A DNA stretch of 64,000 bases from Sphingomonadales bacterium Ga0077557 (GTDB lineage Bacteria > Pseudomonadota > Alphaproteobacteria > Sphingomonadales > Sphingomonadaceae): contig LNFI01000010.1 in assembly GCA_001464615.1 (NCBI GenBank), positions 38,867-102,866 on the forward strand. The letters run 5' to 3'. Below the pieces are notes generated by a model. It saw only the letters and a program-made list of their open reading frames with translations, was not told where the DNA came from and did not search any database. The position numbers were made by a program, and so were the translations under genes. Positions 41,802 through 43,948 of this stretch are shown here, in pieces. Positions within the stretch are counted from its first letter, which is position 1. Each line of letters opens with the position of its first letter.

Positions 41802-42542
41802 TTACAGCATCGCCATGCCGCCATTCACATGCAGCGTCTGGCCAGTGACATAGCCTGCCTCGCGGCTCGACAGATAGACGACGGCGGCACCAATATCAGG
41901 GCCTTCGCCCATATGCCCCGCCGGGATGCGGGCATTGAGCGCTTCTTTCTGGGCATCGGGCAGCCCATCCGTCATCGCGGTCCGGATAAAGCCGGGCGCA
42001 ACGCAATTGACGGTGATTCCGCGGCTAGCCAGCTCCTGGGCAAGCGCCTTGGACATCGCCGTCAGCCCGCCTTTGGAGGCCGCATAATTGGCCTGACCGG
42101 GGTTACCCGTCGCCCCCACAACCGACGTTATCGAGATGATCCGGCCAAACCGCGCCTTCATCATCGGTCGTGCCGCGGCGCGCGCGAGCCGAAAGGCCGC
42201 TTCCAGATTGACGCGGATCACCTGATCCCATTCGTCATCCTTCATCCGCATCACCAGATTGTCGCGCGTCAGCCCGGCATTATTGACGAGAATATCCAGC
42301 TTGCCGCCAAGCGCCTCAACCGCTTGACCGACCAGCGCGTCGACCGCGCTGCCATCTGACAGGTCGCACGGCACGGCAACATGATCACCGCCCAAACTTG
42401 CCCGAAATGCCTCCAGCTTGTCGACATTCGATCCCGACACAGCCAGCCGAGCGCCCTGCCCCGCCAAAGCCTGCGCGATCGCCGAACCAATCCCCCCCGA
42501 AGCACCAGTCACCAACGCCGTCATGCCAGTTAGGTCGAACAT
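41802..42542 (-). CDS. fabG: 3-oxoacyl-ACP reductase
   Basis: TGASGGIG, VNNAG, NYAASK, VAPGFI. Confidence 0.96.
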   Translation of the reverse strand: MFDLTGMTALVTGASGGIGSAIAQALAGQGARLAVSGSNVDKLEAFRASLGGDHVAVPCDLSDGSAVDALVGQAVEALGGKLDILVNNAGLTRDNLVMRMKDDEWDQVIRVNLEAAFRLARAAARPMMKARFGRIISITSVVGATGNPGQANYAASKGGLTAMSKALAQELASRGITVNCVAPGFIRTAMTDGLPDAQKEALNARIPAGHMGEGPDIGAAVVYLSSREAGYVTGQTLHVNGGMAML

Positions 42543-42543
42543 G

Positions 42544-42972
42544 TCATTCTATCCTCTTGATTTGGTTCACGCGGAGGCGCGGAGACGCGGAGTGGTGGTC
42601 ATTGACAACGCGTTTCACGCCTTCTTTGAGCGTTGCACCGCCGAAGTTGATCAGCAGCCCTACGGGCTGCCTTGTCAGTCTCAAATAGGTAAGCAATTGC
42701 TTGCCATGGGCTGCGGTCAACCGCTCGGTAGATTTGATTTCGACAATCAAGCGACCGTCAACCAGCAGGTCAATCTTGAATGCAGCTTCAAAGCACATTC
42801 CGTCAAAATTGATATCGACGGGACGCTGGCGAGCGACGGCATAGCCCATCCGCGTCAACCGGCCTGCAAGAAGCAACTCATAGACGCTTTCCAGCAGGCC
42901 CGGCCCCAATTCGCGATGCAGCTTGAGCGCTACATCGAGAACATCGCCGCTGATCTCGTCGATGTCCCTCAC
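42544..42972 (-). CDS. GxxExxY protein (PD-(D/E)XK nuclease superfamily)
   Basis: GPGLLESVYE signature, IDLLVDGRLIVEIKS, QLLTYL, GLLINFG. Confidence 0.92.
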   Translation of the reverse strand: MRDIDEISGDVLDVALKLHRELGPGLLESVYELLLAGRLTRMGYAVARQRPVDINFDGMCFEAAFKIDLLVDGRLIVEIKSTERLTAAHGKQLLTYLRLTRQPVGLLINFGGATLKEGVKRVVNDHHSASPRLRVNQIKRIE

Positions 42973-43006
42973 TTCTTCTCCGCGCCTCCGCGCCTCCGCG
43001 TGAACC
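42564..43006. repeat. 29-bp inverted repeats (42564-42592, 42978-43006), each with three NCGCGGAG units, flanking the GxxExxY gene
   Basis: GGTTCACGCGGAGGCGCGGAGACGCGGAG versus reverse complement of right copy GGTTCACGCGGAGGCGCGGAGGCGCGGAG: 28/29. Confidence 0.93.
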
Positions 43007-43012
43007 CAAAAG

Positions 43013-43948
43013 TTATAACGTCTTCGCCAGCGCCTCGATATCGGCCATCGTCACCACCCCAATTGCCTCGGCGTCTTCAACAGTGCGCTTCACCATCGGT
43101 GCCAGCACTTTTCCGCCAAATTCGACAAAACTATCGACCCCCGCCGCATGCATCGCCAGCATCGTTTCCCGCCAGCGCACCACGCCGGTTACCTGATCGA
43201 CCAGCCGCGCACGGATCTCGTCAGGTACCGTGATCGGGGCGGCCAGCACATTGGCGAACACCGCAACCAAGGGCGTGTCGATCCGCGCCGCCTTCAGCGC
43301 ATGCAGCATCAAATCAGCGGCGGGTTGCATCAGGCTGCAGTGAAAAGGCGCCGATACGCTCAGCATCATGCCGCGCTTGGCCCCCATATCCTTGGCCATG
43401 GCCACTGCCCGCTCGATCGCGCCGATATGGCCGGACAAAACGACCTGGCCAGCGGCGTTATCATTGGCGACGGCGCACACTTCACCCTGCGCCGCTGCAT
43501 CGGCGATCGCCTGGGCCTGTTCCAGCGTCGCCCCCAGCAGCGCCGCCATCCCGCCAAGACCGACCGGCACTGCATTCTGCATTGCCCGGCCGCGAATCTT
43601 GAGCAACCGCGCCGTCAGCGACAAACTCATCGCGTCCGCCGCGCACAAGGCGGTATATTCGCCCAGCGAATGCCCCGCCACGAATTGTGCTTTTTCGGAA
43701 ATGCGGATGCCGCCTTCGCGCTCCAGCACCCGTAATGTCGCAATCGCATTCGCCATGATCGCTGGCTGCGCGTTTTCGGTCAGCGTCAGCTCGTCTTCGG
43801 GTCCTTCGGTCATCAGCTTGAACAGGTTCTGGCCGATCGACTCATCGACCTCCTGAAAGACTTCGCGGGCGATTGGGCTGGCATCGGCCAGCGCCCGGCC
43901 CATGCCGACTGCCTGGCTACCTTGCCCGGGAAAGAGAAAAGCGCGGAT
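43013..43948 (-). CDS. fabD: Malonyl-CoA-ACP transacylase (apparent ATC start)
   Basis: RAFLFPGQGSQ, GHSLGEY, SAPFHCS; no ATG/GTG/TTG between the upstream in-frame TAA and FPGQGSQ; GGAG 8 nt before ATC. Confidence 0.9.
   Translation of the reverse strand: MRAFLFPGQGSQAVGMGRALADASPIAREVFQEVDESIGQNLFKLMTEGPEDELTLTENAQPAIMANAIATLRVLEREGGIRISEKAQFVAGHSLGEYTALCAADAMSLSLTARLLKIRGRAMQNAVPVGLGGMAALLGATLEQAQAIADAAAQGEVCAVANDNAAGQVVLSGHIGAIERAVAMAKDMGAKRGMMLSVSAPFHCSLMQPAADLMLHALKAARIDTPLVAVFANVLAAPITVPDEIRARLVDQVTGVVRWRETMLAMHAAGVDSFVEFGGKVLAPMVKRTVEDAEAIGVVTMADIEALAKTL

What the first reader, a model, noticed from the sequence alone, without database searches (positions are those of the whole stretch)
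42564..43006. GxxExxY nuclease gene packaged between 29-bp inverted repeats: candidate minimal mobile element
Seen: a 443-bp unit sits exactly between the fabD stop and the fabG RBS. Its ends are 28/29 identical inverted repeats, each GGTTC followed by three tandem 8-mers (NCGCGGAG). The last GGAG of the upstream repeat is the SD of the nuclease (GGAG-AAGAA-GTG), and the ORF reads through the downstream repeat. No target duplication and no transposase are visible. Known: GxxExxY proteins are PD-(D/E)XK-fold proteins of unknown function with patchy distribution. Inference: a selfish nuclease-plus-repeat element, conceptually like RAYT/REP but with a different enzyme. The iterated 8-mers could be binding sites, and pairing of the repeats in the fab mRNA could loop out the gene, hide its SD and leave fabG expression intact. 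This is my best candidate for an undescribed system here.
Basis: partly seen in the sequence, partly recalled or inferred. Interest (0 to 1): 0.82.

Follow-up and report, generated by a model that had tools for sequence, protein, structure and literature searches.

The report
Nuclease gene inside octamer-repeat hairpin
A tiny nuclease gene wedged between two fatty-acid synthesis genes is framed by mirror-image rows of an 8-base repeat; the same frame surrounds this gene family in at least eleven bacterial phyla, and gene-less copies of it are common almost only in genomes that carry the gene, which points to an enzyme-plus-repeat partnership I could not find described in the literature.

Summary
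A 142-codon GxxExxY (PD-(D/E)XK) ORF sits between fabD and fabG of a Sphingomonas. It is bracketed by 28/29-identical inverted arms, each GGTTCA plus three CGCGGAG-N octamers.

The repeat is not private to the gene. This genome holds 51 such arms, mostly as about 140-bp gene-less inward doublets, but only one GxxExxY gene.

- Of 79 GxxExxY loci from at least 11 phyla, 68% have the same kind of flank (TCAC-GCRRAG-N x3). Displaced control windows score 0%.
- Among 151 Sphingomonadaceae genomes, arm families are strongly tied to gene presence (Fisher p about 1e-8).
- In relatives the fabD-fabG site is empty, full, or holds internally deleted arm-only derivatives.

The best reading is a REPIN/RAYT-like partnership built on a different enzyme. 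Its packaging matches the ORF-bearing 23S rRNA intervening sequences: a roughly 430-nt unit, a 28-bp stem and three tandem short repeats. Four-helix-bundle IVS-protein genes elsewhere carry analogous heptamer arms.

Movement, DNA or RNA binding, and RNase III processing are all inferred, not shown. No target duplication could be read. I found no published description of the link, although this scan has flagged it many times.

The parts
42978..43006 (-). Upstream (5') arm in gene orientation: GGTTCA + CGCGGAGG CGCGGAGG CGCGGAG. Its last GGAG (42978-42981) is the putative SD of the nuclease ORF.
42544..42972 (-). GxxExxY / PD-(D/E)XK nuclease ORF, 142 aa with a GTG start. The family domain covers residues 7-123. 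The motif is G25-x-x-E28-x-x-Y31, and catalytic-type D68, E78 and K80 are present. Residues 124-142 are the 3' arm and spacer read in frame. The TGA stop lies 1 nt before the fabG ATG.
42564..42592 (-). Downstream (3') arm, 28/29 complementary to the upstream arm. It lies inside the 3' end of the ORF.
43007..43012 (-). 6-nt spacer (CTTTTG in gene orientation) between the fabD stop and the 5' arm. It partly extends the inverted repeat (TTTGG / CCAAA).
42543..42563 (-). 21-nt spacer AAATCAAGAGGATAGAATGAC between the 3' arm and the fabG ATG. It carries the fabG SD (AAGAGGA) and the stop codon of the nuclease ORF.
43013..43903 (-). fabD (malonyl-CoA-ACP transacylase), the upstream host gene.
41802..42542 (-). 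fabG (3-oxoacyl-ACP reductase), the downstream host gene.

Best explanation
The 443-bp unit is a complete copy of a widespread 'hairpin cassette'. This is a gene of about 125 aa for a GxxExxY PD-(D/E)XK nuclease, bracketed by two inverted arms. Each arm is TTCAC plus three tandem CGCRRAG-N octamers.

In this Sphingomonas the single gene copy coexists with about 50 further arms, mostly gene-less inward-facing doublets of about 140 bp in intergenic DNA.

Most likely mechanism:
1. The nuclease recognises the octamer arrays, plausibly one subunit per octamer, on a folded-back or single-stranded form.
2. It cuts at or beside them.
3. With host repair or replication, this keeps the arms of the whole family alike and now and then seeds new doublets. 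This is the logic of a RAYT with its REPINs, but with a Cas4-like nuclease in place of an HUH transposase.

Inside the fab operon transcript, the two arms are predicted to pair into a stem of about 30-35 bp. That stem buries the nuclease's SD and is the kind of duplex RNase III cuts, as in ORF-bearing 23S rRNA intervening sequences. Ribosomes that do translate the ORF run through the 3' arm and stop 1 nt before the fabG ATG, so fabG expression can be kept.

Shown: the anatomy; the family-wide link of gene and arms; the co-occurrence of gene and arm families; presence/absence and deletion derivatives at one site; the predicted fold and conserved catalytic residues; the predicted stem.

Inferred: binding, cleavage, any movement, RNase III processing and translational coupling.
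For: 1. Family-wide packaging. 54 of 79 GxxExxY loci (68%) from at least 11 phyla have flanking inverted arrays with IR score >=35 (median 42). Only 5% of cross-locus pairings (median 17) and 0 of 142 displaced windows (maximum 25) reach that score. All 9 copies in the genus have such arms, and the octamer differs by species: CGCGGAG, CGCGAAG, CGCAAAG, CACGAAG, CGCGACG.

2. Gene-less family. The own genome has 51 triple-octamer arms against 2 for the reversed-pattern control, and 18 inward pairs, but one GxxExxY gene.

3. Co-occurrence. In 151 Sphingomonadaceae genomes from 105 genera, 15 of 27 gene-positive genomes hold >=8 arms beyond those flanking the gene, against 7 of 124 gene-negative ones. 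Fisher p = 9e-9; Mann-Whitney p = 1e-14. The same trend holds within the genus.

4. One site, three states. In relatives the fabD-fabG spacer is empty (11-25 bp), full, or holds internally deleted derivatives that keep both arms plus gene ends (L014 131 bp, L019 169 bp).

5. Doublet sites differ between nearest relatives. The C12, C29, C32:390804 and C36 sites are empty in G011.

6. Layering. Where doublets are layered, the outer arms are of the type that flanks that genome's own gene (for G012; for own C32:162963-163240).

7. Protein. The AF2 model has pLDDT 90.3 with an alpha-beta-beta-beta-alpha-beta core. Its best PDB folds are Cas4 SSO0001, AdnAB, MGME1 and lambda exonuclease. E28, D68, E78, K80 and Q92 are invariant in 67 sequences.

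8. RNA. The arms pair as the terminal stem in both the MFE and the centroid structure, z = -8.1.

9. Chromosomal, mostly single copy. The gene matches 8 of 72,556 plasmid records and no phage records.
Against: - No biochemical or genetic evidence exists for binding, cutting or moving.
- No target-site duplication could be read.
- The interiors of the gene-less doublets are unalignable (56.5% identity against 54.1% for shuffles), although the arms are 89% alike and interior length is constrained. This is unlike recent copies of one master element.
- Seven gene-negative genomes hold many arms (G086 41, G129 35, G094 31), so arms can persist, or spread, without the gene.
- Five gene-positive genomes hold almost none.
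- This gene subfamily sits at one and the same site across Sphingomonadales genera, which fits vertical residence or homing better than transposition.
- A PD-(D/E)XK nuclease alone cannot perform strand transfer.
Confidence: 0.5

Rival explanations
1. A purely RNA-level element, an 'mRNA intervening sequence'. The arms exist to form a long stem in the transcript. RNase III cuts that stem, excising or silencing the ORF while leaving fabD and fabG messages usable. The nuclease is cargo, as the four-helix-bundle protein is in 23S rRNA IVSs, and does not act on the arms.
For: - The Coxiella IVS has nearly the same design: 428-444 nt, a 28-bp terminal stem, AGAAGA plus three tandem heptamers before a 14-kDa ORF, and RNase III cleavage mid-stem shown experimentally (PMC4990558).
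- PF05635/TIGR02436 genes outside rRNA are also framed by inverted arrays of tandem heptamers.
- The arms are predicted to pair as a stem of about 35 bp.
- All fab-site copies are co-oriented with the operon.
Against: - It does not explain why octamer arms go with GxxExxY cargo across at least 11 phyla while heptamers of quite different sequence go with the four-helix cargo.
- It does not explain why gene-less arm families track presence of the gene.
- It does not explain how about 25 doublets reached different intergenic sites, some between convergent genes.
- No RNA data could be had; one search gave only trace contigs.
Confidence: 0.2
2. A site-specific homing endonuclease gene. This GxxExxY subfamily cuts the empty fabD-fabG junction of incoming or resident alleles and is copied in by recombinational repair. 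The arms are a side feature.
For: - The same junction is occupied in Sphingomonas, Sphingorhabdus, Sphingomicrobium, Allosphingosinicella and Novosphingobium.
- Occupancy is scattered on the host tree, with 6 changes for 6 occupied rows.
- GxxExxY identity does not track FabD/FabG identity (Spearman -0.13 and -0.40, not significant).
- Copies elsewhere in the genus belong to a different subfamily, 45-53% identical.
- PD-(D/E)XK homing endonucleases are known (own knowledge: I-Ssp6803I).
Against: - Homing does not explain the dispersed gene-less doublets at unrelated sites.
- It does not explain the universal octamer arms.
- The host tree rests on two genes with weak support.
- Other, unrelated genes are also inserted at this junction in G004, G009 and G015, so the site may simply tolerate inserts.
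Confidence: 0.12
3. The octamer arrays are host sequences: binding sites of a global regulator or nucleoid protein, or REP-like mRNA stabilisers. GxxExxY genes merely tend to land in them or be retained there.
For: - Paired arrays of four tandem octamers in Geobacter metallireducens were published as 'predicted global regulator binding sites' (PMC2700814).
- Convergent heptamer arrays of unknown role are reported in Xanthomonas (PMC4692102).
- Some genomes have many arms and no gene.
- The arms stay conserved while the interiors drift, as expected of selected sites.
Against: - The arms differ between species of one genus, yet the two arms around each gene match each other. A conserved host factor would not predict that.
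- 114 of 124 gene-negative genomes of the family have fewer than 4 arms, so no general host function requires them.
- No candidate host factor is known.
Confidence: 0.1
4. A stress- or phage-triggered toxin or defence module. The nuclease message is kept untranslatable by the stem and is released when RNA processing changes.
For: The SD lies inside the stem. There is weak profile similarity to Cas4 and to a DRT-associated PD-(D/E)XK protein in PADLOC (E 3e-4 to 7e-3).
Against: - The PADLOC matches are weak Cas4-like ones, no more than shared-fold similarity.
- The locus is a housekeeping operon, not a defence island.
- There is no partner gene.
- It does not explain the dispersed doublets.
Confidence: 0.05

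Closest known systems
REPIN / REP elements with their RAYT (REP-associated tyrosine transposase) genes
   Same: - A mostly single-copy chromosomal gene is bracketed by two inverted copies of a repeat.
- The same repeat is scattered through the genome as gene-less hairpin-forming doublets.
- Repeat families are lineage-specific and co-occur with the gene.
- The gene is rare on plasmids.
   Different: - The enzyme is a PD-(D/E)XK (Cas4-like) nuclease of about 125 aa, not an HUH/Y1 transposase.
- Each arm is a tandem array of direct octamers, not an imperfect palindrome with a GTAG head.
- Doublets enclose about 90 nt of unalignable sequence.
- No activity has been shown.
ORF-bearing intervening sequences of 23S rRNA (Coxiella, Leptospira and others; PMC4990558)
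   Same: The unit is about 430-445 nt. It has terminal inverted repeats of about 28 bp, a purine-rich AGAAGA-like tract, three tandem 7-8-mers next to the start of one small ORF, and sits inside a transcribed unit. A long stem is predicted.
   Different: - The host context is an mRNA operon, not rRNA helix 45.
- The cargo is GxxExxY, not the four-helix-bundle S23p (PF05635).
- The repeat unit is 8 nt and nearly the same across phyla.
- RNase III cleavage is untested here.
Paired tandem-octamer 'global regulator binding sites' of Geobacter metallireducens (PMC2700814), and convergent heptamer arrays of Xanthomonas, Nostoc and Beggiatoa (PMC4692102, PMC4679880)
   Same: These are intergenic pairs of 3-5 tandem 7-8-mers on opposite strands at variable distance. 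They are probably the same kind of gene-less doublet.
   Different: Those papers propose regulation, G-quadruplexes or no function, and do not link the arrays to a flanked gene.
MITEs (miniature inverted-repeat transposable elements)
   Same: Short, gene-less, intergenic, with terminal inverted repeats. Deletion derivatives of a gene-bearing form exist (L014, L019).
   Different: There is no DDE/IS parent and no readable target duplication. Copies share only the arms, not the interior.

Membership tests
GxxExxY protein family (TIGR04256 / PF13366 PDDEXK_3) | Profile score over the curated cut-off | tested here: met
   119.4 bits against a cut-off of 35; PF13366 119.1 bits against 22
GxxExxY protein family (TIGR04256 / PF13366 PDDEXK_3) | GxxExxY motif and PD-(D/E)XK catalytic residues | tested here: met
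   G25-L-L-E28-S-V-Y31, D68, E78-I-K80. These are invariant in an alignment of 67 sequences from many phyla.
GxxExxY protein family (TIGR04256 / PF13366 PDDEXK_3) | PD-(D/E)XK fold | tested here: met
   AF2 pLDDT 90.3 with alpha-alpha-beta-beta-beta-alpha-beta-beta order. The best PDB folds are Cas4 SSO0001 (E 3e-3, TM 0.45-0.51), AdnAB, splicing endonuclease, MGME1 and lambda exonuclease. There is no PDB hit by sequence.
REPIN-RAYT system | Enzyme is an IS200/IS605-like HUH tyrosine transposase | tested here: not met
   The only profile hits are GxxExxY / PD-(D/E)XK
REPIN-RAYT system | Gene flanked by inverted copies of the genome's dispersed repeat | tested here: met
REPIN-RAYT system | Repeat unit is a short imperfect palindrome (REP) | tested here: not met
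   Each arm is three direct octamers. Only the pair of arms is palindromic.
REPIN-RAYT system | Repeat population depends on presence of the gene | tested here: met
   15/27 against 7/124 genomes, Fisher p = 9e-9. This is a correlation only, and exceptions exist.
REPIN-RAYT system | Enzyme binds and cleaves the repeat | not testable with these tools
   Needs biochemistry
ORF-bearing 23S rRNA intervening sequence | Inserted in a 23S rRNA helix | tested here: not met
   It lies between fabD and fabG. No Rfam match.
ORF-bearing 23S rRNA intervening sequence | Terminal inverted repeats that form a long stem; tandem short repeats beside the ORF start | tested here: met
   compared with PMC4990558
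ORF-bearing 23S rRNA intervening sequence | Cargo is a PF05635 four-helix-bundle protein | tested here: not met
   The cargo is PF13366. No TIGR02436 gene in this genome.
ORF-bearing 23S rRNA intervening sequence | Excised from the transcript by RNase III | not testable with these tools
   Only trace RNA contigs were available
MITE / IS-derived element | Target-site duplication | tested here: inconclusive
   No direct repeat is seen at the ends; the flanks continue the inverted repeat. Empty sites in relatives are too diverged to place the junction.
MITE / IS-derived element | Copies alike over their whole length | tested here: not met
   Arms 89% identical; interiors 56.5% against 54.1% for shuffles
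Homing endonuclease gene | Same site occupied or empty among related lineages | tested here: met
Homing endonuclease gene | Cleaves the empty allele | not testable with these tools
   Needs an assay

The most novel reading that the evidence does not exclude
GxxExxY cassettes with octamer arms and PF05635 four-helix-bundle cassettes with heptamer arms may be two branches of one unrecognised class of bacterial 'hairpin cassettes'.

In each, a small protein would read a tandem array of 7-8-mers, one subunit per unit, on a folded-back strand. The class would then account for several long-unexplained features:
- the tandem heptamer and octamer repeats of bacterial genomes (cyanobacterial STRR-type heptamers; Xanthomonas GGGAATC; the Geobacter 'regulator sites');
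- the ORF-bearing 23S rRNA intervening sequences.

New copies may enter at the centre of existing small palindromes. That would explain the layered arms, the absence of target duplications, and the ATTTTG|CAAAAT palindrome at the sister species' empty fab site.
Probability: 0.25. Interest if true: 0.85.

Novelty: new variant of a known kind. Interest (0 to 1): 0.68.

Why it matters
GxxExxY/PF13366 is a very large protein family with no known function: about 14,500 clusters at 50% identity, listed as 'Unknown' in the PD-(D/E)XK census PMC3424549.

Tying it to a defined nucleic-acid partner, CGCRRAG-N arrays in inverted pairs, gives the family its first testable substrate.

The link would also give an origin for intergenic tandem heptamer and octamer repeats. 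These have been reported for decades without explanation, or as 'regulator sites'. It would connect them to the old puzzle of why 23S rRNA intervening sequences carry ORFs.

For genome annotation, the link also explains:
- the odd C-terminal tails of these proteins (SASPRLRVN, SAPPRE and similar);
- frequent contig breaks at these repeats.

Tried and rejected
- **Read-level search for excision, empty alleles or target duplications.** I laid Logan contigs of drinking-water metagenomes on the locus and on doublet loci. Unitigs break at the arms and the joints come from other copies, so this was uninformative.
- **RNA evidence for stem cleavage.** The only RNA-labelled runs hold trace contigs of 155-210 nt at depth 1-6, inside or overlapping the element. 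That pattern is expected from how the runs were selected, so I draw no inference.
- **Interiors as captured foreign DNA (spacer-like).** Each interior is unique in the genome, and none matches any of 50,697 phage records. Not supported.
- **Interiors as decayed gene remnants.** This is true for L014 and L019 at the fab site. It is not detectable for the doublets of this genome.
- **Vertical descent against repeated gain at the fab site.** The two-gene host tree and the identity comparisons show scatter but cannot give direction.
- **Known RNA families and defence families.** Rfam gave nothing; PADLOC gave only weak Cas4-like similarity. There was no PDB hit by sequence.
- **Plasmid or phage carriage as a vector.** Essentially absent.
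- **Literature.** Three papers mention GxxExxY, none in connection with repeats. PF13366 is listed as unknown.

Full report
**1. The observation**

The sequence is as described.
- On the minus strand the order is fabD (43013-43903), a 6-nt spacer, arm (43006-42978), AAGAA, and a GTG-initiated ORF (42972-42544).
- The ORF's last 19 codons run through the second arm (42592-42564) and a 21-nt spacer. fabG follows (42542-41802).
- The arms are 28/29 identical in inverted orientation. Each is GGTTCA followed by CGCGGAG-N three times.
- A 21-nt core of the arm occurs only at these two places in the window, against none in 100 shuffles.
- The ORF is a clear GxxExxY protein: TIGR04256 at 119 bits against a cut-off of 35, and PF13366.
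- The family profile ends at residue 123, so the tail HHSASPRLRVNQIKRIE is simply the arm read in frame.

**2. The repeat is genome-wide**

The assembly is 3.57 Mb in 41 contigs at 62% G+C. Names attached to close homologues place it in Sphingomonas.
- It has one GxxExxY gene but 51 triple-octamer arms, against 2 for the reversed-pattern control.
- Eighteen arm pairs face inward: the gene-bearing one, a pair 1.45 kb apart, and sixteen gene-less doublets.
- The gene-less doublets measure 128-278 bp arm to arm, and most are about 140 bp. One is nested inside another.
- The arm consensus is (GAAGA)TTTGG-TTCRCG-CGGAGNCGCGGAGNCGCGGAG. Conservation fades outward over about 10 nt, and no direct repeat marks the ends.
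- Doublets lie in intergenic DNA, several within 5-9 nt of a stop codon (crude gene calls). Each folds into a stem of 28-35 bp.
- Across copies the arms are 89% identical while the interiors are no more alike than shuffled sequence (56.5% against 54.1%).
- Interior length is nevertheless held to 74-106 nt in 14 of 15 cases.
- The interiors are unique in the genome and match no phage record.

**3. The gene and the arms go together everywhere**
- In the genus, 9 of 25 genomes carry one GxxExxY gene. All nine are framed by inverted triple octamers.
- The octamer differs by species (CGCGGAG, CGCGAAG, CGCAAAG, CACGAAG, CGCGACG), yet the two arms of each gene match each other.
- A scan of species-representative genomes gave 80 loci from Pseudomonadota, Verrucomicrobiota, Planctomycetota, Bacteroidota, Acidobacteriota, Chloroflexota, Gemmatimonadota, Desulfobacterota, Cyanobacteriota, KSB1 and Marinimicrobia.
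- Of the 79 loci with enough flank, 68% have a flanking inverted repeat scoring >=35 (median 42). Almost all have the form TCAC-GCRRAG-N-CGCRRAG-N-CGCRRAG.
- Pairing the upstream flank of one locus with the downstream flank of another gives a median of 17, with 5% >=35.
- Gene-sized windows displaced by 900 nt give a median of 17 and a maximum of 25, so 0%.
- The family is very large: 14,511 clusters at 50% identity with E <= 0.001. Many members end in translated arms such as SASPRLRVN, SAPPRE or SVSSVL.

**4. Gene presence predicts arm families**
- In the genus sample, large arm counts with low controls occur only in gene-positive genomes (G000, G007, G010, G012, G014).
- In 151 Sphingomonadaceae genomes from 105 genera, 27 carry the gene, mostly as a single copy.
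- After subtracting the two arms around each gene, 15 of 27 gene-positive genomes have >=8 arms, against 7 of 124 gene-negative ones. The odds ratio is 21, Fisher p = 9e-9 and Mann-Whitney p = 1e-14.
- The link is not absolute. G086, G094 and G129 have 31-41 arms and no gene, and five gene-positive genomes have almost none.
- In G012, two-layer doublets at five or more loci have outer arms of the CGCGAAG type that frames its own gene, and inner arms of the CGCAGAG type.
- The nested copy in this genome (C32:162963-163240) likewise has gene-type arms outside.

**5. History of the fabD-fabG site**
- Most genus members have an 11-25-bp spacer there.
- Six have the full element.
- Two have 131-bp and 169-bp derivatives that keep both arms and the first, or first and last, codons of the gene (L014, L019). 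This shows one way gene-less doublets arise.
- Three genomes have unrelated genes at the junction.
- The same junction is occupied in 14 further loci of Sphingomonas, Sphingorhabdus, Sphingomicrobium, Allosphingosinicella and Novosphingobium.
- On a FabD+FabG tree, occupancy is scattered: 6 changes for 6 occupied rows, no clustering, weak support.
- GxxExxY identity between fab-site copies (66-84%) does not follow FabD or FabG identity.
- The three genus copies at other sites form a separate subfamily, 45-53% identical to the fab type.
- The two nearest relatives of this genome (G024, G011) both have empty fab sites.
- G024's spacer contains a perfect palindrome ATTTTG|CAAAAT, where this genome has CTTTTGG-[element]-CAAATC.
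- I cannot tell repeated gain at one site from old residence with many losses.
- The gene is essentially chromosomal: 8 of 72,556 plasmid records, all called non-mobilizable, and no phage records.

**6. Doublet sites in the nearest relatives**

A query of joined flanks and alignments gave the following.
- The C12, C29, C32:390804 and C36 sites are empty in G011.
- The C36 site is occupied in the sister species G024.
- The C23:29588 site holds other, solo arms in both relatives.
- In G011 the C12 site is a 6-nt operon junction (TAA-CATATG-ATG). Doublets therefore enter operon junctions just as the gene-bearing unit does.
- Intergenic DNA is too diverged to place the junctions to the base, so the question of target duplication stays open.

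**7. The protein**
- AlphaFold2 with a 67-sequence alignment gives a confident model: pLDDT 90.3, pTM 0.83, with the PD-(D/E)XK core.
- E28, D68, E78, K80 and Q92 are invariant, so an active nuclease is expected.
- Foldseek finds only weak relatives. The best is Cas4 SSO0001 (E 3e-3), then AdnAB, archaeal splicing endonuclease, an Argonaute-associated Cas4-like protein, MGME1, Bax1 and lambda exonuclease.
- PADLOC gives weak Cas4-like hits only. No PDB entry matches by sequence.

**8. RNA level**
- Folding the fab transcript around the unit pairs the two arms as a terminal stem of about 35 bp, in both the MFE and the centroid structure (z = -8.1). The nuclease's GGAG lies in that stem.
- In 15 of 19 fab-site loci the ORF stays open through the 3' arm.
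- In 11 of those 19 it stops within -8 to +4 nt of the fabG start. This would allow termination-reinitiation coupling.
- The spacer upstream of a start codon is rich in stop triplets, so I treat this as suggestive only.
- No usable RNA data exist for this organism. Rfam has no match.

**9. Comparison with what is known**
- The published Coxiella 23S rRNA intervening sequence is a close architectural match: 428-444 nt, a 28-bp terminal stem, AGAAGA, three tandem heptamers, and a 14-kDa ORF. RNase III cuts it mid-stem (PMC4990558).
- I tested whether that cargo family shows the same packaging outside rRNA. TIGR02436 genes from five genomes of other lineages, reached through earlier loci, were checked. 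Nine of the 21 loci (nine of the fourteen strongest matches) are framed by inverted arrays of tandem heptamers or similar short units (GGGGAAA, GACTGGG, GATGTCA, AGTTAGG and others). The unit differs from locus to locus.
- Gene-less paired octamer arrays were published for Geobacter metallireducens as 'global regulator binding sites' (PMC2700814).
- Convergent heptamer arrays are reported for Xanthomonas (PMC4692102), and TAACTGA arrays for Beggiatoa and Microcystis (PMC4679880). All lack a mechanism or a partner gene.
- The layout and the gene-repeat co-occurrence parallel REPIN-RAYT systems (own knowledge of Bertels & Rainey 2011 and Ton-Hoang 2012). The enzyme class and the repeat structure differ, so this is an analogue, not a member.
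- Earlier notes of this scan describe the same association in many other genomes. I used them as leads only.

**10. Verdict**

The finding is real and is one well-preserved example of a general, apparently unpublished association.

This window adds a within-genus natural history:
- empty, full and deleted states at one operon junction;
- a family-level statistical link between the gene and its repeat population;
- layered doublets whose outer arms match the resident gene;
- the parallel with four-helix-bundle cassettes.

How the system works remains inference.

Noticed in passing
L120, L121, L125, L126, L127, L130, L131, L134, L135 (genomes G041-G044): Genes for the four-helix-bundle '23S rRNA IVS protein' (TIGR02436/PF05635) outside rRNA are also framed by inverted arrays of tandem heptamers or similar short units. 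The unit differs per locus (GGGGAAA, GACTGGG, GATGTCA, CAGAAGT and others). The GACTGGG unit looks like the cyanobacterial STRR heptamer CCCCAGT (own recall).
   Followed up: partly
window 42540-42546; fab-site loci L040-L049, L006, L010, L023, L036: The GxxExxY ORF stays open through the 3' arm and stops within -8 to +4 nt of the fabG start codon in 11 of 19 fab-site loci (TGAcATG here). This may be translational coupling of fabG to the inserted gene.
   Followed up: partly
L011 (G024), fabD-fabG spacer: The sister species' empty spacer holds a perfect 12-nt palindrome ATTTTGCAAAAT at the point where this genome carries the element. It could be a palindromic target or a footprint of loss.
   Followed up: no
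own genome C8:198395-199884 (L154): Two inward-facing arms lie 1.45 kb apart around DNA of 44-52% G+C (genome 62%). ORFs of 221 and 178 aa there have no Pfam match. This may be a cargo-carrying version of the cassette.
   Followed up: partly
L167-L171 (G012); own genome C32:162963-163240 and C32:390760-390990: Two-layer doublets: an outer pair of arms of one octamer type lies 10-12 nt outside an inner pair of another type. They recur at several loci with different interiors.
   Followed up: partly
L021 (G009), L025 (G004), L027 (G015): The fabD-fabG junction of other genus members holds unrelated inserted genes: a 313-aa secreted-looking ORF, and 300-380-aa ORFs on the opposite strand, all without arms. 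The junction seems generally permissive for inserts.
   Followed up: no
genomes G086, G094, G129 (Sphingomonadaceae): These genomes hold 31-41 triple-octamer arms but no GxxExxY gene detectable at E <= 0.001. They are orphan repeat families, useful for asking whether arms decay without the gene.
   Followed up: no
window 42517-42925: Near-identical fragments of this element turn up at trace depth in RNA-labelled sequencing runs of several unrelated coded organisms (X25-X28). The likeliest reason is that this water-borne Sphingomonas is a laboratory or reagent contaminant.
   Followed up: no
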